From: Lama glama
Lineage: Eukaryota
DNA: 64,000 nucleotides
Assembly: GCA_028534125.1 (NCBI GenBank)
Contig: CM052822.1
Location: 73,532,001 to 73,596,000 of the forward strand
Direction of reading: 5' to 3'
In this document: positions 1 to 64,000 of the stretch, one piece after another
Layout: the number at the start of each line of letters is the position of its first letter
How positions within the stretch are numbered: the stretch's first letter is position 1
Position numbers and translations under genes: made by a program
The notes under the pieces: model-generated
Told to the model about the DNA's origin: nothing
What the model saw: the letters and a program-made list of their open reading frames with translations, nothing else
The model's database searches: none

Positions 1-3000
1 CTGCCCCTGCACCCAGCTCTCTCTGCCCTGGGGCCTCACCCTGACTCTCGAAGAGCAGGCCCGGGAGCTGCCCCCAGGGACTGTACTCACCCAAAACTGC
101 AGCCGCTGGTGAGCGCCGGGGCGGGGCAGGGAGGCGTGGAGGGAGGGGTGGCTGGGAATGGGTGTGGAGAGGAGGGCATGGCAGGTGTCTGAACCCGAGC
201 TTCTGTCTTCCCAGTGTCTGCCAAGATGGGGCCTTCAGCTGCTCCCTCGCTGACTGTCAGGGTGAGATGTGGGCCACCCAGGTCTCTGCTGGTCCCTCCA
301 AAGCCAAGGCCAGGCTGGCCCTCATATGGGGAGTAGAGCCTGCCTGTCGTAGGCGATGCTACCTCCTTCGGGAAGCCCTGTCCCCTGCTCTGTCCACACA
401 GACTCCCATCCCCAGGCTGAGAGCCAACTCTCCCTGCCCTGTGCTCCCTGGACACTTAGTGTGGTCCCCACTGGGTGGTTGGGGCATTTTTCAGGTACAC
501 TGTGTGCACACCGAGCCGGGCTGTGAGTGGTGCAGGAAGTGGAGGCTTCTTTCCCTGCAGACGAGGAAACTGAGGTCTAGAGGCTGAGCCGAAACAGGAC
601 CCTTGCCTGGCAGTCTGCAGACTCATGGTGTCTGCTTTGTGCTGTGTCAGTCCCAACTAATCAGGGTCCACAGGCCTTTGCTAAGGGCCCACATGTGCCA
701 CACTGGGCTCTGAGTGGGTTCAGAGACTCACAGGCATTCAAGCCCCAGGCACCCCCAGCCTGGCTGCTGAGGGCAGACCTGGCCACCAGAACGGGTGGAG
801 ACAGGAGACAGTGTCTGGCTCACAGACACAAGCTGCATCCACAGGATGTGACTTTGGTACTGAGAATGGAGAGGGTGGGGTGGACAGGACTGGTCAGGGG
901 AGGCTTCCTGGAGGAGGCAAGAACCAAGCTGGGCCTCACTAGTGTTTGGAAGGGTGGATAAGAGCAGAGAGGTGTGTTTGGAGACCTAGAAGTCTGGAGG
1001 CTGCTGGAGCAGAGTGGGCAGCACTAGGGAGGGGAGAAGGGACCCAAGGGTGCCCAGCGTGGGAGGGGGGAGCATTGAGACTGGACCCAGGGCTGACCTG
1101 AGTGGTGGGATGGGTGGTCTTCCCTGGCAGAGTGCCCCCCCGGGGAAATGTGGCAGCAGCATTTGGCCCCCGGGGAGCTGGGGCTCTGCGAGCAGACGTG
1201 CCGGGAGCCCGACGCCACAGAGACTCAGGGCAACTGCAGTGTGGGGCAGGTCCCAGGCTGCGTGTGCCAGCGGGGGCACTTCCGCAGCCAGGCGGGTCCC
1301 TGCGTGCCCTGGGACCGCTGCGAGTGCTGGCATCACGGGCATGCCCACCCGGTGAGACACTTTAGTCCTCCGTGCCACCTAGTCCTTGACTCAGGCCTCC
1401 CGTCCACTGCTTTGTCCCTTTACCGCAGTGGCTCCTCCTCCTACTCTTGGCCCGCAGCAGAGGGCAGCTGGGCCATCAGCCACCACCTGGGACAGTCTCT
1501 GGCCCCTAATGGCCCACCTCCTGCAACTCTTGTTGCCAACGCTAGTCCCAGGCTACTGCCCTGGCTAGGCCCCCAGGCTGGGTTCTGGGTTGGAGTAGTC
1601 TAAGAGGGAAATCTGCAAGAGGAGGGATGGAGAGGAGGCTCTCCCTACTCTCCCCAGCCTGGATCCGAGTGGCAGGAGGCCTGTGAGAGCTGCCGCTGCA
1701 TCAGTGGGAGGAGTGTCTGCACCCAGCACTGCCCCCTCCTCACCTGTGCCCAGGTACCCGCCTGCAGCCCTGCCGCCCTCTCAGAGGGCTCCCCGGGCTC
1801 CTTCCTGGGTCCCTCCCCAGAGGCTGGTCTCAGGGCCTCAAGCAGGCAGTGCCAGGGTTCTGAGCCATCTTCCTGAGTGGACTGGGGACCACACCCTCTG
1901 CAGGGCGAGGTGGCCGTGCAGGAGCCAGGGAGCTGCTGTCCCACTTGTCGCCAGGAGACTCTGGGTGAGCAGGGGACCTGGGGCACCTCCTGCCGCACCT
2001 GTCCCTGCTCTGGGCCCTTCTCCTGAGCCACCCCTGCACCAGCCCCTCATCACGGCCTTCTCTCTGCTCTCCCCTCACCTCCTGCCACTTACCTGCCCTT
2101 TCCCCAGAGGAGCAGCCTGCCTCCTGCCGGCACCTCACCGAGCTTCGCAACCTTACCAAGGGCCCCTGCTACCTGGACCAGGTGGAGGTAACCTACTGCA
2201 GTGGGCACTGCCCGTCCAGCACCAACGTCCTGCTTGAGGTGAGCAAGGGGGCTGCAGGCCCGTGGGGTCAACCTGAGGCCCCCAGGGGCCTGCAGCTGCG
2301 AGCCTAGAACCCAGGCAAAGCCCAGGGGACATGAGGGATGAGGTTCATCTTAGGGGCAAACAGCTGATCAGAGCCGGGGTGAGTTTTCACCAAGGTGGTG
2401 GTGCACCTGCTTCTTGGCCCAATGACCTCAGCTGGGCTTGGGCTCTGAAGGCTGCTGCAGGCCTCTGCCCCCTCCCCGGGGCCTTGTCCCACTTCTCCCT
2501 GGTCCCCCACTCCGCCCCGCACAGCCTGCCCCTCAGCCCACTGTGCCTCACAAGGCAAGCAAGCCAGGACAACAAAGAAAGACATGGAAGAGCTAAGTTA
2601 ACCCATTACACAGTGAGTGAAAGCTTGAAGGACAGGCATTTCACGGGTAGCCTTGTTCCCGATGTTTCCCCGAAGACTGATGGAGCTGTGCTCCACCCTC
2701 ATTCTCCTTGGACCCAGAAAGGCCAGACCTGCTCCTTTGGGTGGCCCTTCTCAGGGGCTCTGGGATCCCCCTTACTTCCCCAGCCCTGAGCCTGGAGGGC
2801 TGTGGCTGCAGCTGGGTCCTGGCCAGGGTCCAGCCAGAACAGAACCTCGGCACCTGGCCTGGCCTCAGGTCACCTGTGGCTTGGCCATTCCCTCCCGCCT
2901 CAGCCCACCTGGCCAAGGTCATCTATTCCTGGAAGACAAAGGTGCTTTCCTACCTGGTCTTCAACCTTTGGCCCCTCTCCTGCTCCCCTGGGCACTCCCT

Positions 3001-4512
3001 GCACCTCCTGGGAATGCCTCCCAAATCACTTTTGGATTTTTTAAAACAGTGAGGAGAAGAGAGTAGTTAAGAAATTTTTTCTGGGAGGAAAAATGATAGT
3101 GGGATAGAATCAGAGGGAGTTACTTTTTTTCTGAATCTTTTGTAGTTTTTTTAAACTTGGTATTGTGTAAATGTATTACCTATTTAAACATAAAGTTAAA
3201 ATAGAATTATACATAAAATTAAAGCAAACGTTCAGTGGGACTTACAGAGTTACCACATAATCAGAGAGCAAGAGTGTCTGCTTTGGAGTGAGAACTCACT
3301 TTGCACTTCGATCCGACTGTGCAGTTTAGGACTTTATTATTTGTAGTTTCAGAAATTGTTAGCCTGTCTCTCCAACTAGGCTGGAAGCCTCTTGGCTTAC
3401 AGTAGAGTCTGTGTCTTTTCCCTCTGCTGATGGGATGCAGTGATGATGGTGTTAAAAGCCTTCATTTACCCTGAAAGTTGTTGGTTGCCAGACAGGTGGG
3501 GGCTGGAGTGAAGGAGGTGGGCTTCTGGGAAAACTGGGACTTGGTGGTGACACATCCTTTCCCTGCCCGGCTGTCCTGCTTGGCAAGATGTGGGATCTGA
3601 GACCTTGGGAATCTGGCCGTCCCTCGGCCCAGCTCTGCGGGGATAGGACGGGCCAAGAGAGGAAAGGAAGGTGGTTTGGGCCGACTCCTCCGCTTGGTGC
3701 CTCCCTGGCTCAGCCACCCGCTTTCTCCCAGGAGCCATACCTGCAGAGCCAGTGCGACTGTTGCAGCTACCGCCTGGACCCCGAGAACCCGGTGCGGATC
3801 CTGAACCTGCACTGTCCCGGCGGCCGCACAGAGCTGGTGGTGCTGCCGGTCATCCACAGCTGCCAGTGCAGCGAGTGCCAGGGTGCGTCTGCACGAGGGT
3901 CCTGGAGAGGGCAGGGGCAGGGCAGGGGAGGGGCCGGGGTCCCCGGAGGCCTGGAGTGGGCTGACCTCTGGCTGGAGCGGGGCCAGGCTGGGCGTTACCC
4001 AACATCCCCTCGCTGGATCCTTCTTGAGTCCTTCCGCTCCACCCCATCCCCCTTCTTAGCATTCATGTTGATTTCTTCCCCAGTCAAGAGTAAGGTTGGG
4101 TGCTTGGAGTCAGGCAATACTGGGTTCAAATCCCAGCTTGTCTATTTCTTCCTTGCTGAGTCTCCATGACCTCATCTTTACAACTGGGCTGACAATCTGC
4201 ACAGGCTTGTTGAGAGAACTCAGTGGGAAGTGTCTGGTTCTTGTTAAATACCTGGTATATGATACCCCGAGGCCAAAATGTGTGGCAGGTGAGAGAGAAA
4301 CCCAGGCACTGATACCCCGTGGATGGAGCGCAGGGCAAGAGCCCACCTTTGCTCTTGGCTTCTTCCTGGAACCTCTTCCTTCCTCTTCTGCCAGTTGGCT
4401 CAGACGGCCCTCTCTCCAGCCACATCCCTTCCAGGCCTGACCACTCTGCCTTTTTTTGCTAGCACATCTGCCCTTCATTTGTCCTCCAGGAGGTGATTTC
4501 TCAAAGCGCTGA
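1..4512 (+). CDS. SSPO: SCO-spondin, 3' terminal coding exons (partial gene; TIL/VWC-like cysteine-rich repeats and C-terminal cystine knot)
   Basis: Exons <1-108, 215-261, 1131-1351, 1658-1753, 1904-1964, 2108-2238, 3732-3882 and 4490-4512, all GT-AG with matching phases. The joined translation [19 protein letters not shown]...CPPGEMWQ...CEQTC...[64 protein letters not shown]...[14 protein letters not shown] matches the recalled SSPO C-terminus. No stop or frameshift in this part. Confidence 0.95.
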
Positions 4513-10034: not shown

Positions 10035-35714
<25,680 letters not shown>

Positions 35715-52900: not shown

Positions 52901-53559
52901 TACTGAGTTCTCTTATCGTGTATAACAGTTCTTTCAGTTTATTATCTGTGTCTCCCAGTTTTGCAATCAAACCATCCTTGGTTCTAGAGTGCCTCTGGGT
53001 TAACACTGCAAAGGGACCAGCTCTGAGCCCACTATATACAGACCCCGACACAACAGTATGATTTTAGTATCACTTGTAGCTCCTCCCATCTCCTACTGTA
53101 ACATACTGTGGGACTGGGTCTCTGTGTCCTCATCTGTATGATGGAAAAATCAATAACCACCATCTCGGAGGCATGGAATCAAACAAGATTTAAAATAGCT
53201 TTGGTAAAGTGAAAAGATATATACTCTCATTGCAGGGGTCCTAGTTTTAGCCCAAGCCGGAGGACTGCACCAGCCTGGAGCTGATGGACTTGGGCACAGA
53301 GGAGGGGAGCCCGAAAAAGATGGCAAGAACTGAGATCAGTCCTGGGAAGGTGAGCAGGGAGGACTGCCCAAGGCCCAGTGGTGTCCCAGCAGAGGCCCTT
53401 GAATTTGTCTTACTGTAGCAGTGGAAAGAAGCTCAAGGTAGCCTGTGAAGCAAGAGCTGGGTTAGTGCCCAGGTGGGACCAGCGCAAGGAGATAGGGACA
53501 ATTGTTTGGGGAGTCCACAGTGGTGGAAGGCATGGATGACCCCTGGGTTCTGGGAGAGG

Positions 53560-54480
53560 CCATGGGCGCATCATCGGGAATGTGCCCCATAAGACGCTTT
53601 ATGGGCTTCCTGAAATGCTGGGTGAGCCTTCAAGGCAGGAAGAGACTCCGACACATGGATCACTGCCGTCACCGTGGTCCCTTCCGTCTGCTCGTGCGAA
53701 ACGAGACCCAGGTTGCACTCGGGCAGTCAGACTCTGGTGGCGCAGAGAGGCCGGGACGGAAGGGGCCTTGGGGATCGGCTGGTGGAGAAGTATGACTGGA
53801 CTACGTCGGCCCAGAGAGCGTGCAAGTGTTCCTTCTAAGGCCTATTAAACTAGCACTACTGAGCTAATACCAAGGGACCTCGGTCAAGGAGGGAGCCGCG
53901 GCCAAGATCCGGCGGAGGAGGCGGCGTGACCCCCACCCACTTCCGGCCTCGGCCTCTTGCGCCTGCGCACTTGGTGCTGGCCGCCGGCTCGGGGAACGTA
54001 CCAACCGCGGGACGGGGGTGGGCGCGGCGCCGCGGGCTGTTGCTCCCGGAGGTGTAGCCCTTTGCGACCCGGGACCCCCCCCCCGGCTCTGCGGGGGCCT
54101 TTGGCGCCTTCGGGTACGACTCGCGGCGGCGCGGAGGTGGGTGCGGGCGGCGGCCCCTTGCTACCCGCCGCGGGGGCGCGGTCGGCCACAGCAGGAGCCG
54201 CGTCCAGCTCCACCAGCCCAGCCAGCCCGACCCCTGGCCGTAGGTGAGCCGGGGAGGGGGCGTTGTGGTCCCGCTTCACAGCTGTGGACTCGGGGGGTGC
54301 GGAGATGGCTTGCTCTGGTCTGCCCCGCTCATTGGCGGCTCAGGTGACCCCCTCCTAGCCTAGCCTCTCCTTCTCAGTGCCCTGCACCGGAAACACGAGG
54401 TGAGGCCAGAATGTACCGGACGGCGGCTCGTAACGTATCCATTGCGCACTCTGCGCCAGTAACTGTCCTTAAACACTGTT
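53560..54480 (+). promoter_or_regulatory. CpG-island promoter and non-coding exon 1 (donor at 54243/54244), probably shared by LRRC61 and ZBED10
   Basis: Very CpG-rich, with ETS CACTTCCGG (53938-53946), NRF1-like TGCGCCTGCGCA (53958-53969) and donor TAG|GTGAGC. The LRRC61 identity is inferred from synteny only; its coding exon is not in the window. Confidence 0.8.
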
Positions 54481-54727
54481 GTATGCAGACATGGACTCCC
54501 TTAATCCGTAACAAGCCAGTGAGCTGGCTGCTGTTAACCCTGTTGTATAGACCAGGAAACCGAGGCACACTAGTGCACGTAGTGCTCAGTCACAGCTGGT
54601 GATCCATCTTGTTGTTGTTCTCAAGTGTGTGCGTGTGTCATCCGTTATGAGAAGTGTAACAAACAACTTCTGATAACCAAAGTCCTGGAATTTGTGGGTG
54701 ACTTTCTTTTTACATTTCCTATTTTAG

Positions 54728-54900
54728 ATTCACGTAGATTCAAGGTTGGCGCTGCACAGTGTCCACCTCGCTGTCATCCTGACATGGTTCAGTGGAAAAG
54801 AGAGGGGTAGCATTACCGTGGGTCCCAGGGATTGCACACGATCCTGGACCTATCCCCAGGGGGCTGTCAGGAGATAAGGATCCGGAAGCAGTAGCCTAAG
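54728..54900 (+). other. Probable non-coding 5' UTR exon 2 (LRRC61/ZBED10 transcript)
   Basis: Polypyrimidine tract plus ttttAG acceptor and a strong AAG|GTAAGC donor. It contains only a short uORF (54784-54810). Confidence 0.6.
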
Positions 54901-57327
54901 GTAAGCCACCCTTCCAAGACAGAATCGAAACTCCCATGTCATAGGCCTGGTTTGCCTCTAGGTCAGCCTGAGGCCTGGCTCCAGGGTGCCTTGCCCTGGC
55001 GCTGGGAGGCATTTCCAAGTCATCCTCTCCTCCTGAGCCCGCATGCAGCCAGGCAGTTACTCATCTTTAGATTTGTGTTTCTAGGGTACAGGGCTGACTC
55101 ACGGTAGACATTTGACAAATTTTTGTTAAATGGTCAAGTGGATCAAGAGTCTCTGCAGAATATGGACAGACTGGAGGGACAAGGCAAGTTGGCGGACGGA
55201 ACAGGATTGGTGCCCTGGGGTAAACTAGCAGGTCCTCAGGTAAAGGCTTTGGGGTGTGACCTAGGCAGCAGCCTGACTTGAAGTGTTTTCCTTTTCTTTG
55301 CTCTTATCAGTGAGAGCAGGCCGGCCACGGGCCCACCTAGTTCTGTGTTCTTGGGAGCAATGAAGCCTACCGACTGCTTCTGGAGGCCCGGCGCCGGCTC
55401 TGGACCTCCACTCTGCCACTGACCATCACATTGCCGCTCTGGGTTTACGTTTCCTCAATCAAAACAAGAGTGGAGGTGAGCCCCTGTGGTTCTGATGCCT
55501 GGAGCACCTCCTGTGGGGCAGGACAGGGTCTTGCTCTTCATTTGCACCTTGACCCACAGCATCATCCACAGCACCTCCACAGTGTCACTGCCCGCAGGCC
55601 GCAGACATCGGGTTCGGTGGCAGCTGCCTGGGTGATTTCTCTTAGTTCTTCTGAGGCCCCTCTTGCTGGAAGGGGCTCCTCTGCATCATATTGTCCATGC
55701 TTCTCCATGGCCAGTTCTCACTTGAGCCACCGGTCAACAGTGAAGGCCATCCTGCCAGCCCTGGTGATCCTTCTGAATGGTTATCATTGCCTAGTGTCAG
55801 AATGTTCTGGCTCCCATCTCCTCACTTACCCTGCCCTCTGCTCTGGTCTGGAGAGACGCACACTCCCTGCTCTCAGATGTTCAGGGTGGGATCTGAGCCA
55901 CCTTCCTCTGAACCTTCTCTTTCCCTGGGACCCGTGTCCTGGCTCCCCGGCCTCCTCCTTCCTCACATTCTCTTCTTCTTTCCACACATTTCTCTTTTGT
56001 TTTCTTCATGTCTTCTTTTCTTTTGAGAGTCCTGAATTTGACCTCATCCCCGGAAGATGAATGCGGGAAAGGGAATTAAGGATTGTCCATAGGTTTAGGG
56101 TCTGAGCATCTGGGTGAACAGGTGTCCCATTTACCGAGATGGAGTTGACTGTGGGAAGAGCAGGTGAGAGGAGCCTGGGAGGGAGTTGGGAGCCAAAAGG
56201 GGCTCACAGGGGTCTGTGTGGAAATGCAGATGCAGCTCCAGTTGGGGAGGAGGTGTGGAAGTAGAACCAGGGCCTGGAAACAAGGAACCCTGGGAATCGC
56301 CATTGAGGGATGGGCAGAGACTGAAAAGGAGTCACAGGTGACAGGAAAGCCAAGAGAACGTGGTGTCCCAGGGCCTCGGGCCGCAGCATTCTAGATGGAG
56401 GGCTCGAGCAATTGCTCCAGTGCAGAGAAGTCCCCTGAGGTGGGGCCACGAGGGTCACCAGGGGGCCTCAGCTGTGTCAGTGTCAGGGACCTGCTGGGGC
56501 CGGAGCTGGAGAGGAGTGGGCTTTTGAGGAATGGGAGGTGAGAAGGTAGAAACAGCCCTTCAGGAGTTTGTCTGTGATAGGACGCTGGGGGCCTGGGTCA
56601 GTGGCATCGGGAGTGGCCCCACACTATGTGCTCCGGCAGAGGCTTAGGAAGCCTCGGGCTGCATAATCCGTGAAAACTGATCGCTGTTATCTTTTCATGG
56701 TGCCCTGGAGGTGCCAAGTACCACCTAGGGGCACAGGATGCAGAGACCGGCCACCTCCACTCGCTGCCGGCCTGCAGCTCTTCCAGGGAGACCTAGCTGT
56801 TTTCCTCATGAGTGTCTTCCTCATGGGGTCTCACAGCCCCCGCAGTGCTCCTCCACACCCTACACCTTGGCTTAAATTGTGTTGTGCATGTCTCTTATTC
56901 ACATTTGTCTTGCCCACCAGCCTGAGAGCCATGTGCATGCAGGTGCCTTGCCAACTTTATATTGTATCCATCACACAGGAACATTGCCAAATGCCTACTA
57001 GGTTCTGAGTGAACATTGAAAGAAAAGAGAGAAACCTCACTTAGTTTGGCAAAGAAGATGGACCCAGAAACCACTAACGTGCAGAGGGCTGTGGGGGTTC
57101 TGGTCCAGGGCGGCTCCGTCGGGTCTGAAGGAGTGAACATCAGGCTTCATTCACCAAGGAGGTCGGGATCTGGAGAGTTTTGTCCTGGGGCTGATTCCAT
57201 GTGGTAACTGCACCTCCATCCTCAGCTCTCTTCTCCCCTCTCCGGCCTCCCCTCCCCTCGTTGAGCTGTTCTTCTCATCTTGCCTTACAGCCTGGGCCTG
57301 TCTTCTCATTGCCCAAAGCTCCCAAGC

Positions 57328-60300
57328 ATGTTGGAAGTAGAAACGGTCAGAAAGCCCCCCAAGAAACATACCCCCTCGAGGTCAGTGGGGCAAGAGCCCC
57401 CTCTGTGTGCTGACTCTGCCGAGACCAGATCCAAGAGCCCAGCCACCACTCTGGCTTCTTCCAGCTCCAAGTTCAACACCAGAGCCACCAACACCTCTTG
57501 TGGACTTGGCTGGGATGCTGGGGGGCACCTGCCAGAGAACGAAGTCAAGCTTGAGTTTGCAGACATAGAGGAGAAGGCCGGTGGCTCCAGGAAGATCAGA
57601 GCCTCCAACTCCCAGAAGAAGAGTGAGAGGGAGCTGCCCCTGCAGAGGAAGAGACCTCGACCCCTCCCCAGAGCCTTGTCTGTCCCTTCGCCTGACCAGG
57701 CTTTCCTGGAGGAGCAGGAGGAAGGTCCCCTGGGCCCGCATGTCTGCAGCAAGAAGAGAAGGGCCTACTCCCTGGAGAGGCCTGGTCTTCACCCAGCTGT
57801 CTCTGGGGCAAATTGCCACGCCAGCCCTGGGCAGGATAAGAATAAGCCAAAGGGAGACCCTGGACCCTGTGGTCTCAAATCTGTGCTGGGGCAGGAGCCC
57901 CCGGTGCAGCCTAGGAAGAAGGTGTCCAAGCAGAAGGCATGTGGACGGAGAAAGGAGGGGGAGCCGGCAGCAAGGACATTGAGGGACCCAGTGCTCAGCT
58001 CTGGACAGGCCCCTTCCAGCCTGGTATTGGTTCAGACCAGCAGCCTGGACAGGCGAGAGGTGGGCCAGCCTGGTGAGAATGAGGTGAGGCAGACCGATGT
58101 CCTCATAGCCCGCCTGGCCAGAGAGGTGCGTCACCTCAAGAAGTGGAAGAAGAGGCATTTGCTCCCTGGCGTTGGGGAGCAGCCGCCCCTGCTGAGCCTC
58201 CAGAGGCCACTCTGCCCCAAGAAGCTGGTCAGCACCGCAGGGGTGGAGGCCAAGGGCTGGGCCCCCGGGCCGCCCCCGGGCCCCCTGGACACCACGGGCC
58301 AGAAGCCCACGCCCGACCTGAGACGATTCTTCACCACCGTCAACTACAGGAACATCTGCCGAGTCACCTGCACTCTGTGCCACGCGAGCATCAAACAGGG
58401 CAAGGTGAAGGGGCAGTCCCAGCCCTCAGGTCTGGTCCGCCACTTGGCAAGAAAGCATGGGCTGGACGTGGGGAGAAAGCCAACTGCGGCCGGCCCTGGG
58501 AGGGAGCAGGGAGGGGCTGAGAAGAAACAGAAGGGCCTCCCCGCAGGTGCCGCCGGCCAGGTCTCCCAGGGGCTCCCATCACCACGACGCTGCCCGGACG
58601 CCTCACCTCCAGAAGACGGGGAGGGGCAGGCGGCCCCAGGCAGGCCTGAGCAGTTGGTACAGGCTCTGCCCCCGCTGCCTACTCCCACCAGAGATAAACC
58701 TACTGTTGCCCCTGTGGAGGGTGGGGAGGACCAGGGTGGCCTGTATGCCCCCAACCAGCCCCGAGCACAGGCCTGGAACCACAGCATTGCCGAGTTACTC
58801 TGCAGCCTGGCCTTGCCACTTTCTTTTGTTTCATCCCCACCCTTCAGAAGATTTATGGCCCAGGTGGATCCCTGCTACCACCTGCCACCTCCAGCCTTCT
58901 TCTCTGGGAAAGCCTTGCCTCTGCTCCATGAAGCAATGGGGGAGCAGGTGCGTCAGGAAATGCGGTGGGCTAAGGGTGGCTGCGTTCACCTCAGTGTGTC
59001 CGTGGCAGCCCAGGACACAGTTGTGGACTATGTGGCTATCACTGCCCACTGGGGGGTGACACGGCCGGGTAGCCAACAGGTGGGGTCTGGAAGCCCAAGG
59101 AAGCAGGCTGTGCTCTGGGTCCGGGGCCTTCCCCTGGAGAGTGTCCTAGAGGACAGGCAGCAGGAGCTGCGGGAGCAGCTCAGCTTGTGGCTCAGCCACG
59201 GCTCCCTGAGGCCGGGCTTTCTGGTGGCGGGTGGCTGCCCCAGCCTGGAGCAGGTGGTGAGGACAGAGGGCTACATCCCTGTCCCTTGCTTTGTCCACTG
59301 CCTCGACTCTCTGGTGGGAAGCTTTCTGTGTCACCATCACAGCGTCCAGATCATCCTGGGCACGGCCAGGGCCATCTGCAGCCACTTCCAAGGCTCCGCA
59401 GAGGCCCGGCGGCTCCTCTCCCGGCTGCAGCGGCGGTGCGGTCTCCCAGCGCACCAGCCCTTTTGGGAGCTCTCAGACCACTGGGTCTCTGCCTACCGCC
59501 TGATGGAGTGGCTGGTGGAGCAGCAGCGGCCACTGCAGGAGTATGAGGAGAAACACCAGCTGGGGAAGGCGGGGACAGCCCTGTCGGCCATGTTTTGGAG
59601 CCTGACAGACAGCCTGGTCCAGCTCCTGCGGCCCTTCCAGATGGTGGTCCGGGAGGCGAGCACCACACAGGCTTCCTTGAGCCTGGTGCTGCCCCAGCTA
59701 CGCTACCTGCACATCTTCCTGGAGCAGGTTCGCGGGTACTTTGAGGAGCAGAGCGCTGGGGAGATGGGTGCAGCTGTGCGGCTGGCTGAGGGCTTGGCCC
59801 TGCAGCTGACCACAGATGGCCAGCTCACCGAGCTCTTCCACCGCGAGGAGTTTGTGCTGGCGACCCTCTTGGATCCCCGCTTCAAGGGGAGGATCGAGGC
59901 CATCCTGCCCGCGGGGGCTGACATTGACCACTGGAAGCAGGTGCTCGTGTACAAGGTAAAGGAGATCATGGTGTCGGAATACTCCTTGCCTCCCTCGCCG
60001 TCCCTGCAGAGCCCCCGGGCTGTGCGTGCGGACTCCGCCTTGAGTGGCAGAGTGGCCAGGAGCTCCGGGGCAGAGGGAAAGGACCAAGAGGACCCTGTGC
60101 AGAGAGGCAGTGCCTCTGAGTCTTTGCTGTTTGGCCAGAGGGAGAAGAGCCTGCTGGAGCAGCTGGAAAGCGTGGGGCTGCTGGCCTCCAGGAGGAGTGG
60201 TGCCTCGCTCTCCATGGAGAACCACCAGGCCAGCGTCATTGTGAAGAAGTACCTGCGCGAGAATGAGGCGGTGGGTGCCCAGGAGGACCCCCTGGCTTAC

Positions 60301-60582
60301 TGGGAGAAGAGGTGGGATGTCTGGCCAGCCCTGGCGAGACTGGCCACCATCTATCTGTCCTGCCCCCCGACGGGCACCTTCTCGGCAAGTGTCTTGGCCT
60401 CCCTGGGCAGCCGGACCATCACGGAACATGACCCCTCTCTCCCAGTGGACGCCATCCAGTATCTTCTCTTCCTGAAGACCAACCTGGAGAATTTCCCCAG
60501 CTACACCCCGCCGCCCCTTATCTTCCCCAGTGGGGACCTGGCTGATGTGGAACAGACCAGTGAGCCTGACTGCACGGTCTGA
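57328..60582 (+). CDS. ZBED10: BED zinc finger / hAT transposase-derived protein, 1084 aa, single coding exon (likely full-length ortholog of human ZBED6CL/ZBED10P)
   Basis: Uninterrupted ORF whose first ATG is at 57328 (A at -3), after acceptor ccttacAG at 57290. BED finger RRFFTT..VTCTLC..SGLVRHLARKH. hAT motifs PLSFVSSPPFRRFM..DP.Y.LP, YVAITAHW, PCFVHCL, ATLLDPRFK, and the dimerization-domain DPLAYW..WPALARLA.IYLSCPP..LLFLKTN. The symbol is assigned by synteny. Confidence 0.88.
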   Translation: MLEVETVRKPPKKHTPSRSVGQEPPLCADSAETRSKSPATTLASSSSKFNTRATNTSCGLGWDAGGHLPENEVKLEFADIEEKAGGSRKIRASNSQKKSERELPLQRKRPRPLPRALSVPSPDQAFLEEQEEGPLGPHVCSKKRRAYSLERPGLHPAVSGANCHASPGQDKNKPKGDPGPCGLKSVLGQEPPVQPRKKVSKQKACGRRKEGEPAARTLRDPVLSSGQAPSSLVLVQTSSLDRREVGQPGENEVRQTDVLIARLAREVRHLKKWKKRHLLPGVGEQPPLLSLQRPLCPKKLVSTAGVEAKGWAPGPPPGPLDTTGQKPTPDLRRFFTTVNYRNICRVTCTLCHASIKQGKVKGQSQPSGLVRHLARKHGLDVGRKPTAAGPGREQGGAEKKQKGLPAGAAGQVSQGLPSPRRCPDASPPEDGEGQAAPGRPEQLVQALPPLPTPTRDKPTVAPVEGGEDQGGLYAPNQPRAQAWNHSIAELLCSLALPLSFVSSPPFRRFMAQVDPCYHLPPPAFFSGKALPLLHEAMGEQVRQEMRWAKGGCVHLSVSVAAQDTVVDYVAITAHWGVTRPGSQQVGSGSPRKQAVLWVRGLPLESVLEDRQQELREQLSLWLSHGSLRPGFLVAGGCPSLEQVVRTEGYIPVPCFVHCLDSLVGSFLCHHHSVQIILGTARAICSHFQGSAEARRLLSRLQRRCGLPAHQPFWELSDHWVSAYRLMEWLVEQQRPLQEYEEKHQLGKAGTALSAMFWSLTDSLVQLLRPFQMVVREASTTQASLSLVLPQLRYLHIFLEQVRGYFEEQSAGEMGAAVRLAEGLALQLTTDGQLTELFHREEFVLATLLDPRFKGRIEAILPAGADIDHWKQVLVYKVKEIMVSEYSLPPSPSLQSPRAVRADSALSGRVARSSGAEGKDQEDPVQRGSASESLLFGQREKSLLEQLESVGLLASRRSGASLSMENHQASVIVKKYLRENEAVGAQEDPLAYWEKRWDVWPALARLATIYLSCPPTGTFSASVLASLGSRTITEHDPSLPVDAIQYLLFLKTNLENFPSYTPPPLIFPSGDLADVEQTSEPDCTV

Positions 60583-61764
60583 TGCCCCGAAAAGCTGCCT
60601 GTGGAAAGAAGCAGAGTATTGCACCTGAGGACATTAGACAAGGGCAGCCAGAATCTTAAACCTGTTTGAAAAGAATGAGGGCAGTTTCTCACCTCTTGCC
60701 AGACGGCCGCTTTCACTTACAGGGAGGTGTCCTTTTCCATCTGGCCGCCGCTTGATTTATGGCCAGCGGTGTGTGTGTGGAAAGGTTTACTCCGCTCACG
60801 GGTGACTCCCAGTTGTACTACACAGCTTGTTAACTGTGGTGCTCTTTTAAAATACCAGCGGGTAGTAAGGGCCCCCCATACAGCTTGTCCGTGTGTGTCG
60901 GGGGTGCGGGCCCTGAGAGCAGCCAGAGCCCAGGGAGCCGTGTGTGCTGCGGGGGAGGTATGCCCAGCCACCCAGGCCAGGGGGACACTGTGGGCGCTCT
61001 TCCTGAGACAGAGGTGCTGTTTTAAGAGGAAGGGGCCCACGGGCACACGGGGCTTCTCAGGGCCTGTACTCTCCCTGGATCCCAGAGTGCCCCAGAGCTC
61101 TGGTGGCTGGGACTGCTGGCTCCTGAGGTCATGTGACTGAGGAGAGCTGAGACCCCCCCCCCCCAGTCCTCACACTGTCATTCTTACCTGTAGTTTGCAG
61201 ACCCCCAGAAACCTTGGGGTTTCTTCCTTTCTACAGTGGACACCTCAGGAAGCAAGGAAAGATGTATATCCTAGGAATGGAACAGCCTGGCCTGAGTTCT
61301 TTTGGGGCCAGGGCAGGACCTGAGGGCGTGGGACCAGGCACTGGGGGGATCCGGTGGAGAAGAAGGAAAAGGAGAGGTAGGGGTGTGGGGGGTGGCCCAT
61401 CTCACCCCACAAGACGCGAGTCTAGCTCTCCCAAGGTGCTGGGTCACCAGGGGACGTGGCGGTGAGACGGAAGGTGGGGAGACGCAGGGCGAGGCACCGA
61501 GGCCTAATCTGCACTGTGGCCCTGGCTGTGGGGGTGAGCCTGGGAGACCTGTCCCCTTGCGTCCCCGTGTCACTGTGACTAATTCACTGCAGGGCATTCG
61601 GAAGTTACTGAGAACATGAGAAGCTGGAGAAATTCCCTGTCATCCTTTCATTCAGACGGCCTCTGTTACTGCTTAAACATGTTTCCTTTTTTTACTTTGA
61701 GATCATACCCTGTCCTACTTAGCGTGGTGTATTTTCATTTTGACGGTGTCATTGTGGCATCTTG

Positions 61765-61770
61765 AATAAA
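61765..61770 (+). terminator. Polyadenylation signal for the ZBED-like terminal exon
   Basis: AATAAA about 1.2 kb after the stop codon, with GT-rich sequence downstream (cagtggttggagcagtgtgattgg). Confidence 0.7.
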
Positions 61771-62393
61771 GCTTCATAAAGATCACGTTCAGTGGTTGGA
61801 GCAGTGTGATTGGAAGTCAGGTCTGGCCTCCATACTGCTTAGGTCGCATCTCCTGCCCCAGCTGTTGGAGAGGGTGTGTGTCACCGGCTCCCTGTGATGA
61901 GAGGCGAGGGGTGTCTGGAGGAGAAGCCAGGACTGAGGCTGTGCTCTGTAACGTCCCCAACTCTGTATCAACTGCATTTGGTGATGAGATCAGGGCACGG
62001 CCCTGCACGAGCCCGGCCCCCTCCCTGCCTCCCTCCCTTACATTGCACATGTGGCTCAGACTTGAATGTGAATCACCTGAGATCATCTTAAAACTGCGTC
62101 ATCCTGTCCCTGCCTCCCACATGCGGGTGCAGTAGGTAAGGTGGGGGCGGGGATGTGATGCACCCCCAAGTTGTTCTGGGGGCCACTCATGGTCAGTGCC
62201 ACTATCCCCTTGAGCTGTCCTTGGCAGGGGCACCGTCCCCTTGCTGTTCGGTGTCACGGACCCACGCTCTGTGTTCCTGAGGGTGAGGGGCTGGAATGGA
62301 GAGGCAGTGGGGTGGGAGCACGTGAGGAAGACGGGGGTCGGTGCAAGGAGGAGGGTGAGAAGCTTCACGGTCTTGGGGGCTTGGGCTCCAGAG

Positions 62394-62605
62394 CAGTGGT
62401 TCTCAACAGGAACAGTTTTGTTCCCCAGGGGACATTCAGCAGTTTCTGGAGAGGTTTTGGTTGGCACAGCCTGTAGGGGGAATTGTTCCTGTCCTCTCGT
62501 GGATGGAAAGCACATGCTGCTGAACATCCTGCAATGGCCAGAGCAGACCCTACAACAGACGCAGTCCAGCCCCAAATGGTGGTAGGGCCAGGGTTGAAGA
62601 ACCTG
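62394..62605. mobile_element. MER20 MITE
   Basis: cagtggttctcaac..ttttgttccccaggggacatt..tctggaga..ttttggttg.cac..tgctgctgaacatcctgcaatg..gggttgaagaacctg. Confidence 0.78.
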
Positions 62606-64000
62606 TGCCAGATCGTGGACGGAAGGCGATGGGGTGCAGGAGGGTCCCCAGTCCGCCAAAGCTGCCAGGTGACTGTCCACCTGAGGCTGCTCTGAGTTGA
62701 ACTTTTTCTCTCCTAGACTTAGCTCTGCCCCACTCTTCCTGACTCACGGGCATCCTTTCCTGGCCCATTTCCTACAGAGGTAACCTGAGATTCAGAAAAG
62801 CTGGCTCTGAACAAGGGAAGATGGGCCTCCCTCCAGAGAGCCGAATGTCACCTGTGTCTTGGTCATAGTCTCATCCACATAACCAAGTCCTTTTCACAGA
62901 CCCGCACTGGGCCAACAGCCTCTGCTTATTTCCATAACAGGACCAGGATGCCCCTTGCTTTTCAGAGAGGAGGGCTGACAGGCTTAGGTGTGGCTGAGCC
63001 ATTCTCCCATCGTGAAGAGCCTCCTCTCAGTTGCTGGTCTCTCCATTTGGGTACACCTGGATTTGCACAGGTGTGTGGGCCCTTGCCTTGTTGAGGTGTG
63101 CAGATCTGAGGTAAGACAGTGACCAGGAGCAGAACAGAGATGGTTGATGCACTGGCAAATCGTGTTTTGACTGTGGTGCTGTTCATCTAACTGCAGACAA
63201 GGGTGCAGGACCGAAGGCACAGAGCCGTGGGCTGGAGGGTCACGTATTTCCCACCGGATAGGACCTTGGGGCACAGAAGGCTTGATTTGCAGTCCCAGTG
63301 GGATCTTTCTGCTCCTCTGGTTCCTCTTCTGCAGAAAGCATTCCTCTACCCTCCGGCTTTACCGTGGGCAGCGAGTGCACCATTCCGTCCCTGCTCCCTC
63401 GTTCTTTCCTTCCCTTCGGGCCACCACCTCCATCTCCATCACTAACCTGCTCCTCAGGGCATCTCTGCCTGACCCTCGTGGTCCACTGTGACCTCCCCTC
63501 TGCCCCAGACTACCCCACCTGATGGCCTCTTCTCGTTTGGACCCAGTGTGCACCAGGGGTTCCCGACCACTTTCACCCCCAAAATAGTATGGCTGGGAGG
63601 ATAGCCATCCTCCTAGAGTAAGGCCCACAGGTACTGAAAGAAGCCTGTGTCCCCTAAGGCTGGCCTGGTGTGCTGTGTGCTCACATGGTGGGTGGATCTG
63701 CACCTGCCTCCTAAGGCCGATGCCACAGGCACCCTAGAGCCTTGTCCCAGCTAAGTCTTCTTGCCCCCACCCTGCCTGTCCCAGCTGCGTGGGAGGTAGG
63801 AGCTGTGTGTCTGGTCACGTGGCCAGGTCCCGAGCACGTGTTCTCCCTCCTCTCCATCTCTCGTTGCCTTTGGCGGGGTCCTTGTCGCTTGCTAGGGCTT
63901 TTATGGCATGTTTTCAGGGTCTGGTGCCCCTCGTGCCCCACCCCACCCTACGGGCCAGAGCAGGTGTAACCAGATGCAGAGGGGACTGCGTCACTCCCTG

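What the first reader, a model, noticed from the sequence alone, without database searches (positions are those of the whole stretch)
53900..61790. Nested two-gene architecture: transposase ORF as an alternative terminal exon of a host (LRRC61) 5' UTR
Seen: CpG promoter, exon 1 donor at 54243, non-coding exon 54728-54900, a strong pyrimidine-rich acceptor at 57290 only 37 nt before the ATG, the ORF, then AATAAA at 61765. An in-frame TAA (54875-54877) in the upstream exon blocks any N-terminal extension. Inference: one promoter yields either the ZBED protein (proximal acceptor plus intronic polyadenylation) or the downstream host CDS outside the window. This would be a mutually exclusive switch, reminiscent of ZBED6 borrowing the ZC3H11A promoter.
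Basis: partly seen in the sequence, partly recalled or inferred. Interest (0 to 1): 0.7.

Follow-up and report, generated by a model that had tools for sequence, protein, structure and literature searches.

The report
Dead transposase gene shares LRRC61's leader
In this camelid, an intact but cutting-dead transposon-derived gene (ZBED6CL, a pseudogene in humans) sits inside the LRRC61 gene and is likely made from the same promoter and leader exons by choosing a different last exon, a known kind of arrangement that public annotation already shows for alpaca.

Summary
All quoted sites are at the stated coordinates, and the LRRC61 CDS lies just beyond the window. The 1,084-aa ORF is the ZBED6CL/C7orf29/ZBED10 orthologue; alpaca RefSeq lists a 99.5% identical protein as 'LRRC61 isoform X2'. 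RNA contigs of a related camelid confirm 54243>54728 and splicing into 57291, but reveal a missed exon (55311-55475); 54900>57291 was not seen, and 55475>57291 is inferred from contig breaks. One contig ends near 61785, after the AATAAA. Both forms appear to coexist in one sample; no regulated switch is shown. ZBED6 uses intron retention, so ZBED1/DHRSX and PGBD3/CSB are closer analogues. Human LRRC61::ZBED6CL splicing is published. The modest new point: papers call the mammalian gene truncated and BED-less, yet 52 full-length mammal-type proteins were found, 42 with all four BED zinc ligands, none with the two catalytic aspartates; catarrhines, whales and a ruminant gave only fragments.

The parts
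53800..54600 (.). CpG-island promoter, likely shared by both genes
   Evidence: CpG o/e 0.93 and 0.60; RNA contigs begin at 53988 (X2) and 53991 (X5), depth 0 upstream of 53868 in X2 and X13
53988..54243 (+). Non-coding exon 1 (start approximate)
   Evidence: Joint 54243>54728, GT..AG, in 2 of 3 contig runs
54728..54900 (+). Non-coding exon 2, with an 8-codon uORF at 54784 whose A is changed in the relative
55085..55183 (+). Minor cassette exon with a GC donor
   Evidence: Two low-depth joints in X5 only, 1 of 3 contig runs; sites read
55311..55475 (+).
   Evidence: Joint 54900>55311 in 3 of 3 contig runs; contigs end at 55475 in all 3; acceptor 18 of 20 pyrimidines
57058..57161 (+). Coding part of an optional upstream exon in an alpaca RefSeq model (47-aa N-terminal extension); not seen used here
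   Evidence: P0138 maps to 57058-57159 plus 57292-57327; contigs unbroken across 57161 in 3 of 3 runs
57291..61785 (+). ZBED6CL/ZBED10 alternative terminal exon (3' end approximate)
   Evidence: Contigs start at the acceptor AG with depth rising 10.2>29.2, 5.4>21, 10.3>104.7; X13 record 7 ends near 61785 by its length
57328..60582 (+). Intact 1,084-aa ORF: basic low-complexity N-terminus, one BED finger, hAT-derived core without catalytic residues
58369..58458 (+). BED-type zinc finger (C348, C351, H372, H377); the Trp of the BED signature is replaced
   Evidence: Pfam zf-BED E=0.0093, below the curated cut-off; alignment
60247..60486 (+). hAT C-terminal dimerisation domain (aa 974-1053)
   Evidence: PF05699 E=1.1e-7
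61765..61770 (+). AATAAA poly(A) signal followed by a G/T-rich stretch
61786..64000 (+). Rest of the LRRC61 last intron up to the window's edge. The LRRC61 coding exon lies beyond the window at G000:C7:73597500-73599017 (L002 3500-5017; window-equivalent acceptor 65500, CDS 65628-66407, ATTAAA 67012)

Best explanation
The ORF is the intact camelid copy of ZBED6CL (C7orf29/ZBEDX, ZBED10P in humans), a domesticated hAT transposase without its catalytic residues, and it is likely expressed as an alternative last exon of the LRRC61 transcription unit. Transcription starts in the CpG island and exons 1, 2 and 3 are spliced (shown in a relative's RNA contigs). The exon-3 donor (55475) then likely joins either the near acceptor (57291), with cleavage after the AATAAA at 61765, giving ZBED mRNA, or skips 10 kb to the LRRC61 acceptor (window-equivalent 65500), giving LRRC61 mRNA (both junctions inferred). 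No coding sequence is shared, so this is promoter and 5' UTR sharing, not a fusion protein. Both mRNAs are likely made side by side at a ratio set by splice-site and poly(A) competition. The protein is predicted to be a nuclear, dimerising DNA- or chromatin-binding regulator like other ZBEDs, not a transposase.
For: Identity: 99.5% to alpaca P0137, named 'LRRC61 isoform X2'; groups with human ZBED10P in a mammal clade at 100/100, apart from ZBED6-like and ZBED4 rows; one full-length copy in G000 (a floor). Host: LRRC61 CDS 5 kb after the ORF's stop, then a chemerin-like gene. RNA: joints 54243>54728 (2 of 3 contig runs) and 54900>55311 (3 of 3); contigs break exactly at 55475 and at the AG of 57289-57290 in 3 of 3. 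A break exactly after 55475 needs a next letter other than G; intron 3 and the LRRC61 exon both begin with G, the ZBED exon begins with C. In X2 exon 3 has depth 76, its G-branch 55, so about 21 goes elsewhere, matching the rise of 19 at the ZBED acceptor; of the 55, 10 is intron and about 45 leaves the stretch. X13 record 7 ends about 15 nt after the AATAAA. No CpG island near the ORF (o/e 0.30 at 57000). A 4-nt length difference between acceptor and ATG in the relative (read from loose ends) argues that the leader is non-coding. Annotation: 9 of 86 orthologue rows (including a turtle) and further members carry the name LRRC61, though none of 243 fetched proteins has LRRC61 sequence. Human: spliced LRRC61::ZBED6CL RNA in 17 of 27 AML and 8 of 12 T-ALL samples (PMC9315513, Table 2 row); ESTs with exonization upstream of C7orf29 (PMC3192792). 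Dead enzyme: the two catalytic Asp columns hold D in 0 of 85 orthologues but in 3 of 3 ZBED6-like rows; here S558, G635, and A1020 at the Glu column; no TIR with 8-bp target duplication.
Against: No record spanning 55475>57291 or 55475>65500 was displayed; both are inferred from contig breaks. RNA came from a relative about 97% identical (Camelus-like), not from this species; the one raw-read run laid only 2 reads. Contig depth is a poor measure of expression, and in X13 the ZBED exon (104.7) is deeper than exon 3 (59.8), so flow does not add up there. Only 53500-59000 was laid; the 3' end rests on one contig's length, while the X2 and X5 contigs run on to about 62650 and 65470. A direct 54900>57291 joint cannot be excluded in X2 and X5. 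The BED finger scores below Pfam's cut-off and lacks the signature Trp in 52 of 52 mammal-type proteins; no protein-level or functional data were found.
Confidence: 0.85

Rival explanations
1. The choice between the two last exons is a regulated, tissue- or state-specific switch that trades LRRC61 for ZBED (the first reader's strong version; an addition to the best explanation, not an alternative to it).
For: The layout forces one choice per molecule; crude contig depths differ between runs (ZBED share of spliced flow about 0.3 in X2, about 0.36 in X5, apparently higher in X13); the layout seems old (a turtle model carries the LRRC61 name).
Against: Both branches appear in the same run; depths are not expression values; tissues were not compared; hybrid 395-aa RefSeq forms splice from inside the ORF to the LRRC61 exon; humans keep the splice although the ORF is broken.
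Confidence: 0.2
2. ZBED6CL is an independent single-exon nested gene with its own promoter; splicing from the LRRC61 leader is a by-product (transcriptional interference).
For: PMC3192792 (section read) lists LRRC61/C7orf29 as host and nested gene with interference; an alpaca model has an extra exon ending at 57161 whose start is unknown.
Against: Depth rises exactly at the acceptor AG, not upstream; contigs run unbroken over 56750-57299 at intron depth; no CpG island there.
Confidence: 0.07
3. The protein is made ZBED6-style, from intron-retaining or read-through RNA that also carries the LRRC61 CDS.
For: Intron 3 is covered at depth 5-10 in all 3 contig runs; the X5 contig runs from the acceptor to about 65470.
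Against: Exon depth is 3 to 10 times the intron depth; X13 ends after the AATAAA; low even intron cover is expected from pre-mRNA (own knowledge).
Confidence: 0.06
4. The ORF is a recent or still mobile hAT element, or a neutral relic with an open frame by chance.
For: Humans carry a pseudogene and tolerate homozygous loss of function (PMC3868571, passage); several lineages gave only fragments.
Against: Single copy, same locus from frog to mammal (PMC3606216 Table 1), open frame of over 1,000 codons in 52 mammal-type proteins with the core about 80% identical against 50-65% for the N-terminus, catalytic Asp lost in all 85, no TIR/TSD.
Confidence: 0.02

Closest known systems
ZBED6CL / C7ORF29 / ZBED10P and frog ZBEDX (PMC3606216; parts 1-2 of 4 and passages read)
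   Same: Same gene and locus: human LRRC61 intron 2; orthologues upstream of the LRRC61 CDS in pig, horse, panda, dog, platypus, frog.
   Different: That paper (and PMC9859435, passage) describes the mammalian gene as truncated and without a BED domain and does not mention splicing (0 hits for 'splic'). Here it is full length with one BED finger; non-therians have two (27 of 33 by motif count).
Promoter-sharing pairs such as ZBED1/DHRSX and RBM12/CPNE1 (PMC2568002, passages)
   Same: Shared promoter and first exon(s), unrelated coding sequences; ZBED1 is itself hAT-derived and lies in intron 1 of DHRSX (PMC3606216 Table 1).
   Different: LRRC61/C7orf29 is not named in that paper's main text (0 hits); here three non-coding exons are shared.
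PGBD3 in CSB/ERCC6, the 'exon trap' (PMC2268245, passages)
   Same: Transposase ORF flanked by a 3' splice site and AATAAA acting as an alternative terminal exon.
   Different: PGBD3 is fused in frame to host coding exons; here the upstream exons are non-coding, so the protein is stand-alone. PiggyBac versus hAT; primates versus tetrapods.
ZBED6 in ZC3H11A (PMC5834713, passages)
   Same: Close ZBED relative (about 29% identity to ZBED6-like rows), single coding exon, in a host intron, uses the host's transcription.
   Different: [quoted passage not shown]
Hermes hAT transposase (PDB 6dww, 4d1q, 8edg, 2bw3)
   Same: Profile match E=4e-13 over core and dimerisation region; CxxH motif and the conserved Trp are kept.
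   Different: All three catalytic positions are replaced in this protein; no terminal inverted repeats.

Membership tests
ZBED6CL/C7ORF29/ZBEDX orthologue group | Position upstream of the LRRC61 CDS / in its last intron | tested here: met
   LRRC61 CDS at window-equivalent 65628-66407
ZBED6CL/C7ORF29/ZBEDX orthologue group | Groups with human ZBED10P, apart from ZBED6 and ZBED4 | tested here: met
   Tree of 25 chosen rows, C-terminal parts, alpaca P0137 as stand-in: mammal clade 100/100; human 236-aa protein maps to aa 772-1000 at 71%
Domesticated ZBED (Ac-type hAT) genes | BED zinc finger with four ligands | tested here: inconclusive
   C348, C351, H372, H377 present, and in 42 of 52 mammal-type proteins; Pfam score 16.4 is below the cut-off 20.6; signature Trp absent in 52 of 52
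Domesticated ZBED (Ac-type hAT) genes | hAT core and C-terminal dimerisation domain | tested here: met
   PF05699 E=1.1e-7; Hermes E=4e-13
Domesticated ZBED (Ac-type hAT) genes | Single copy, orthologous, no terminal repeats | tested here: met
   One full match in G000, others at 33% identity or less (stricter first look); 0 of 213 inverted 11-mers between the flanks had an 8-bp duplication with up to 2 mismatches, shuffles 0-2
Domesticated ZBED (Ac-type hAT) genes | Sequence-specific DNA binding and gene regulation | not testable with these tools
   No functional study found
Active hAT transposase | D-D-E catalytic triad | tested here: not met
   S558, G635, A1020; the first position is placed through ZBED6-like rows, the other two through the printed Hermes alignment
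Promoter-sharing gene pairs (shared 5' exons, different CDS) | ZBED exon spliced to the shared leader | tested here: met
   Contig breaks at 55475 and 57289 in 3 of 3 contig runs of a relative; junction inferred, not displayed
Promoter-sharing gene pairs (shared 5' exons, different CDS) | LRRC61 exon spliced to the same leader | tested here: inconclusive
   G-starting branch of depth about 45 leaves exon 3 in X2; the LRRC61 exon lay outside the stretch laid; RefSeq naming supports it
Promoter-sharing gene pairs (shared 5' exons, different CDS) | No shared coding sequence | tested here: met
   In-frame stops upstream of both ATGs; no LRRC61 sequence in 243 fetched proteins
Exon-trap fusion (CSB-PGBD3 type) | In-frame fusion to host coding exons | tested here: not met
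   Upstream exons are non-coding; TGA 55420 in frame
ZBED6-type expression | Expression by retention of the host intron | tested here: inconclusive
   Intron cover is 10-35% of exon depth; spliced entry dominates

The most novel reading that the evidence does not exclude
ZBED10 is an overlooked full-length chromatin regulator kept since early tetrapods, whose level is set by a regulated last-exon switch against LRRC61 and, in Camelus, further tuned by an internal splice that removes the last zinc ligand of its BED finger; it was lost independently in catarrhine primates and in whales and ruminants, so it controls a trait that humans have shed.
Probability: 0.15. Interest if true: 0.6.

Novelty: already known. 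Interest (0 to 1): 0.3.

Why it matters
As a system it adds little: the gene is named, the nesting is published, the shared-leader layout is implied by RefSeq names in many species, and the kind (promoter-sharing pairs, transposase as last exon) is described. It matters in two smaller ways. First, the papers found describe the mammalian gene as a BED-less stub, whereas most mammal groups sampled carry a full 1,020-1,140-aa protein, often filed under the name LRRC61, so an unstudied ZBED6-related regulator is hidden in pig, dog, horse, bats and camelids. Second, gene-level 'LRRC61' counts and knockouts of the shared leader in those species would mix two unrelated proteins.

Tried and rejected
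Raw-read run X20 (same species label as the best DNA holders) laid only 2 reads, so it gave no junction counts. Single-sequence search of solved structures found nothing; the profile did. The sigma-70 promoter scan is not meaningful for a mammal and was disregarded. Repeat searches in both flanks gave only short chance matches. I first took the human ESTs 'exonization about 1.2 kb upstream' for the 57291 acceptor; the human breakpoints suggest sites inside the decayed ORF instead, and without human DNA the match to camelid sites is untested. A conserved N-terminal extension was rejected: database extensions differ in length and sequence between alpaca, pangolin, marmoset and a fruit bat and the leader length differs by 4 nt in the relative. 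Zebrafish 'ZBEDX' is not syntenic and is a different gene (PMC9859435, passages). Literature searches for isoform or poly(A) studies of LRRC61 found none among the rows listed. L003 was fetched and not used. No structure or complex prediction was run. Supplements of the papers were not read and could list this pair.
Full report
1. Observation. The window is G000:C7:73532001-73596000. The next stretch (L002) holds a 259-aa leucine-rich-repeat ORF at window-equivalent 65628-66407, with an acceptor at 65500 and ATTAAA at 67012, followed on the other strand by a gene that I recognise as chemerin/RARRES2 (name recalled). The name LRRC61 for that ORF rests on my recall of the protein, its LRR domains, and the published neighbourhood (PMC3606216 Table 1).

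2. What the ORF is. Pfam gives the hAT dimerisation domain (E=1.1e-7) and a weak BED finger (E=0.009, below cut-off). The search returned 104 proteins among 7,991 candidates scored: 52 full-length mammal-type proteins at 55-97% identity, one partial seal protein, 33 from platypus, turtles and amphibians at 38-47%, then ZBED6-like, ZBED4 and two weak rows. The closest named protein is alpaca P0137, 99.5% identical (5 differences), listed as 'leucine-rich repeat-containing protein 61 isoform X2', so the genome is a South American camelid (inference). In a tree of 25 rows that I chose, built on C-terminal parts, it groups with human ZBED10P at 100/100, apart from ZBED6-like and ZBED4 rows. It is the ZBED6CL/C7orf29/ZBEDX orthologue, which PMC3606216 (parts 1-2 of 4 and passages read) places in intron 2 of human LRRC61 and upstream of LRRC61 in pig, horse, panda, dog, platypus and frog.

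3. Protein anatomy. The first 325 residues are basic and low in hydrophobic residues, with several clusters that look like nuclear localisation signals (inference). The BED finger has C348, C351, H372 and H377; all four ligands are kept in 42 of 52 mammal-type proteins and 31 of 33 non-therian ones, but the signature Trp is absent in 52 of 52 and present in 31 of 33 (P0053 and P0090-P0104 were left out of this count). Non-therians mostly have two fingers (27 of 33), therians one. Mean identity to other mammals is mostly 0.67-0.83 over aa 501-1050 (0.57 in one linker window) and 0.49-0.65 before that. A profile of 31 rows matches Hermes transposase at E=4e-13. The two catalytic Asp columns hold D in 0 of 85 orthologues and in 3 of 3 ZBED6-like rows; the Glu column holds E in 21 of 52 and 30 of 33; this protein has S558, G635 and A1020 (which Hermes residues are catalytic is recalled). 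There is one full copy in the genome (a floor) and no inverted repeat with an 8-bp duplication between the flanks. It is a long-domesticated, catalytically dead gene.

4. RNA evidence. Of 24 runs listed I laid 4 on 53500-59000: three sets of RNA contigs (X2, X5, X13; RNA is a guess for X5) from a relative about 97% identical, whose two codon-length indels match the camel proteins, and one raw-read run that gave 2 reads. Shown: 54243>54728 in X2 and X5; 54900>55311 in all three; a minor exon 55085-55183 in X5. No 54900>57291 joint was listed, and X13 has no branch at 54900. Inferred, on the recalled basis that these contigs break where the 31-letter word graph branches: all three runs break exactly after 55475 and start a new contig at the AG of 57289-57290, where depth rises from 10.2 to 29.2, 5.4 to 21 and 10.3 to 104.7. 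Intron 3 and the LRRC61 exon both begin with G, so a break right after 55475 needs a successor with another letter; the ZBED exon begins with C. In X2 the numbers fit: exon 3 at 76, a single G-ending word at 55, remainder 21 against a rise of 19 at the acceptor; the 55 splits into 10 of intron and about 45 that leaves the stretch, as the LRRC61 exon would. In X13 the depths do not add up. The junction contigs themselves were not displayed; a 4-nt difference just after the acceptor in the relative may be why. X13 record 7 (3,239 letters from 58547) would end near 61785, 15 nt after the AATAAA; the X2 and X5 contigs run on to about 62650 and 65470, which fits pre-mRNA or longer 3' ends. Depth is 0 upstream of 53868 in X2 and X13, so DNA carry-over is low there.

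5. Annotation and literature. Nine of the 86 orthologue rows (pig, two bats, ferret, armadillo, squirrel, tamandua, jerboa, a turtle) and further members (alpaca, dromedary, warthog, two pangolins, marmoset, squirrel monkey, gorilla) carry the name LRRC61, yet none of 243 fetched proteins has LRRC61 sequence. I read this as gene models that share exons with LRRC61 (inference from recalled annotation practice). In humans a spliced LRRC61::ZBED6CL RNA is listed as a conjoined gene in 17 of 27 AML and 8 of 12 T-ALL samples (PMC9315513, one table row seen), and ESTs show exonization upstream of C7orf29 (PMC3192792, one section read); whether those sites match the camelid acceptor is untested. The kind is described: 24 human pairs sharing first exons with different coding sequences, among them ZBED1/DHRSX (PMC2568002, passages), and PGBD3 as an alternative terminal exon of CSB (PMC2268245, passages). 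ZBED6 differs: it is expressed after intron retention (PMC5834713, passages). In the listings I saw no paper that describes the full-length mammalian protein or its last-exon expression; most listed papers were seen as title and abstract start only, the library lacks most subscription papers, and supplements were not read.

6. The stop nearest the ATG in the spliced leader is TGA 55420, ending a 20-codon uORF in exon 3. An alpaca model adds 47 residues through an exon ending at 57161, not seen in the three runs. Dromedary and alpaca models of 395 aa join aa 1-374 to a short out-of-frame tail read from the LRRC61 exon, so the two outputs are not strictly binary; the window has no GT at that donor. 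'Mutually exclusive' is true per molecule; a regulated switch is not shown.

7. Distribution. Full-length proteins came from camelids, pigs, donkey and rhino, carnivores, bats, pangolins, xenarthrans, lagomorphs, several rodent groups, New World monkeys, platypus, turtles and amphibians. The search for shorter forms (29 hits among 7,997 scored) gave only fragments for apes, Old World monkeys, mouse lemur, a serow and three whales; it also gave short models for species whose relatives are full length (mole-rat, pangolin, bats, turtles), so a fragment alone does not prove a loss. Human is named 'putative protein ZBED10P' and is listed among homozygous loss-of-function genes (PMC3868571, passage). 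Independent losses in catarrhines and in whales plus ruminants are likely but were not tested on DNA.

8. Verdict. The residual interest is the overlooked full-length protein and its patchy loss. Novelty: already known. Interest 0.3.

Noticed in passing
window 58451-58546: In run X13 a branch opens after 58452 and closes at 58547, which follows a good acceptor; the hidden genomic contig works out at depth about 34 (predicted bin depth 102.1, observed 102.1). This fits a 96-nt in-frame intron in the Camelus-like relative that would remove the last BED ligand (H377). The window has GA, not GT, at that donor; 30 of 52 mammal-type proteins have S-K-H here, which can encode a GT donor.
   Followed up: partly
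window 31801-33912 and 18490-19182 (+): A second hAT-derived gene about 25 kb upstream: 703-aa ORF with the hAT dimerisation domain and C17orf113-type zinc fingers; looks like ZNF862 (name recalled).
   Followed up: partly
window 54243-54727: In X13 the leader contig begins at 54243 and reads through intron 1 at full depth, with exon 1 not covered: a downstream start in the CpG island or a retained intron.
   Followed up: no
window 55085-55183: Minor 99-nt cassette exon with a GC donor, seen in X5 only.
   Followed up: partly
L002 3005 and 3108 (window-equivalent 65005, 65108): Two more AATAAA just before the LRRC61 acceptor; possible distal poly(A) sites for a long ZBED 3' UTR.
   Followed up: no
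proteins P0227, P0228, P0230, P0231 (human-like cluster 9): 322-aa forms on tens of contigs extend the 236-aa human ZBED10P frame to the full C-terminus (aa 772-1077), which suggests a polymorphic frame break.
   Followed up: no
L002 6933-7475 (-): Exons of a chemerin/RARRES2-like gene, tail to tail with LRRC61 (name recalled).
   Followed up: no
window 1-4200 (+): Cysteine-rich exon fragments that look like the 3' end of SCO-spondin (name recalled).
   Followed up: no
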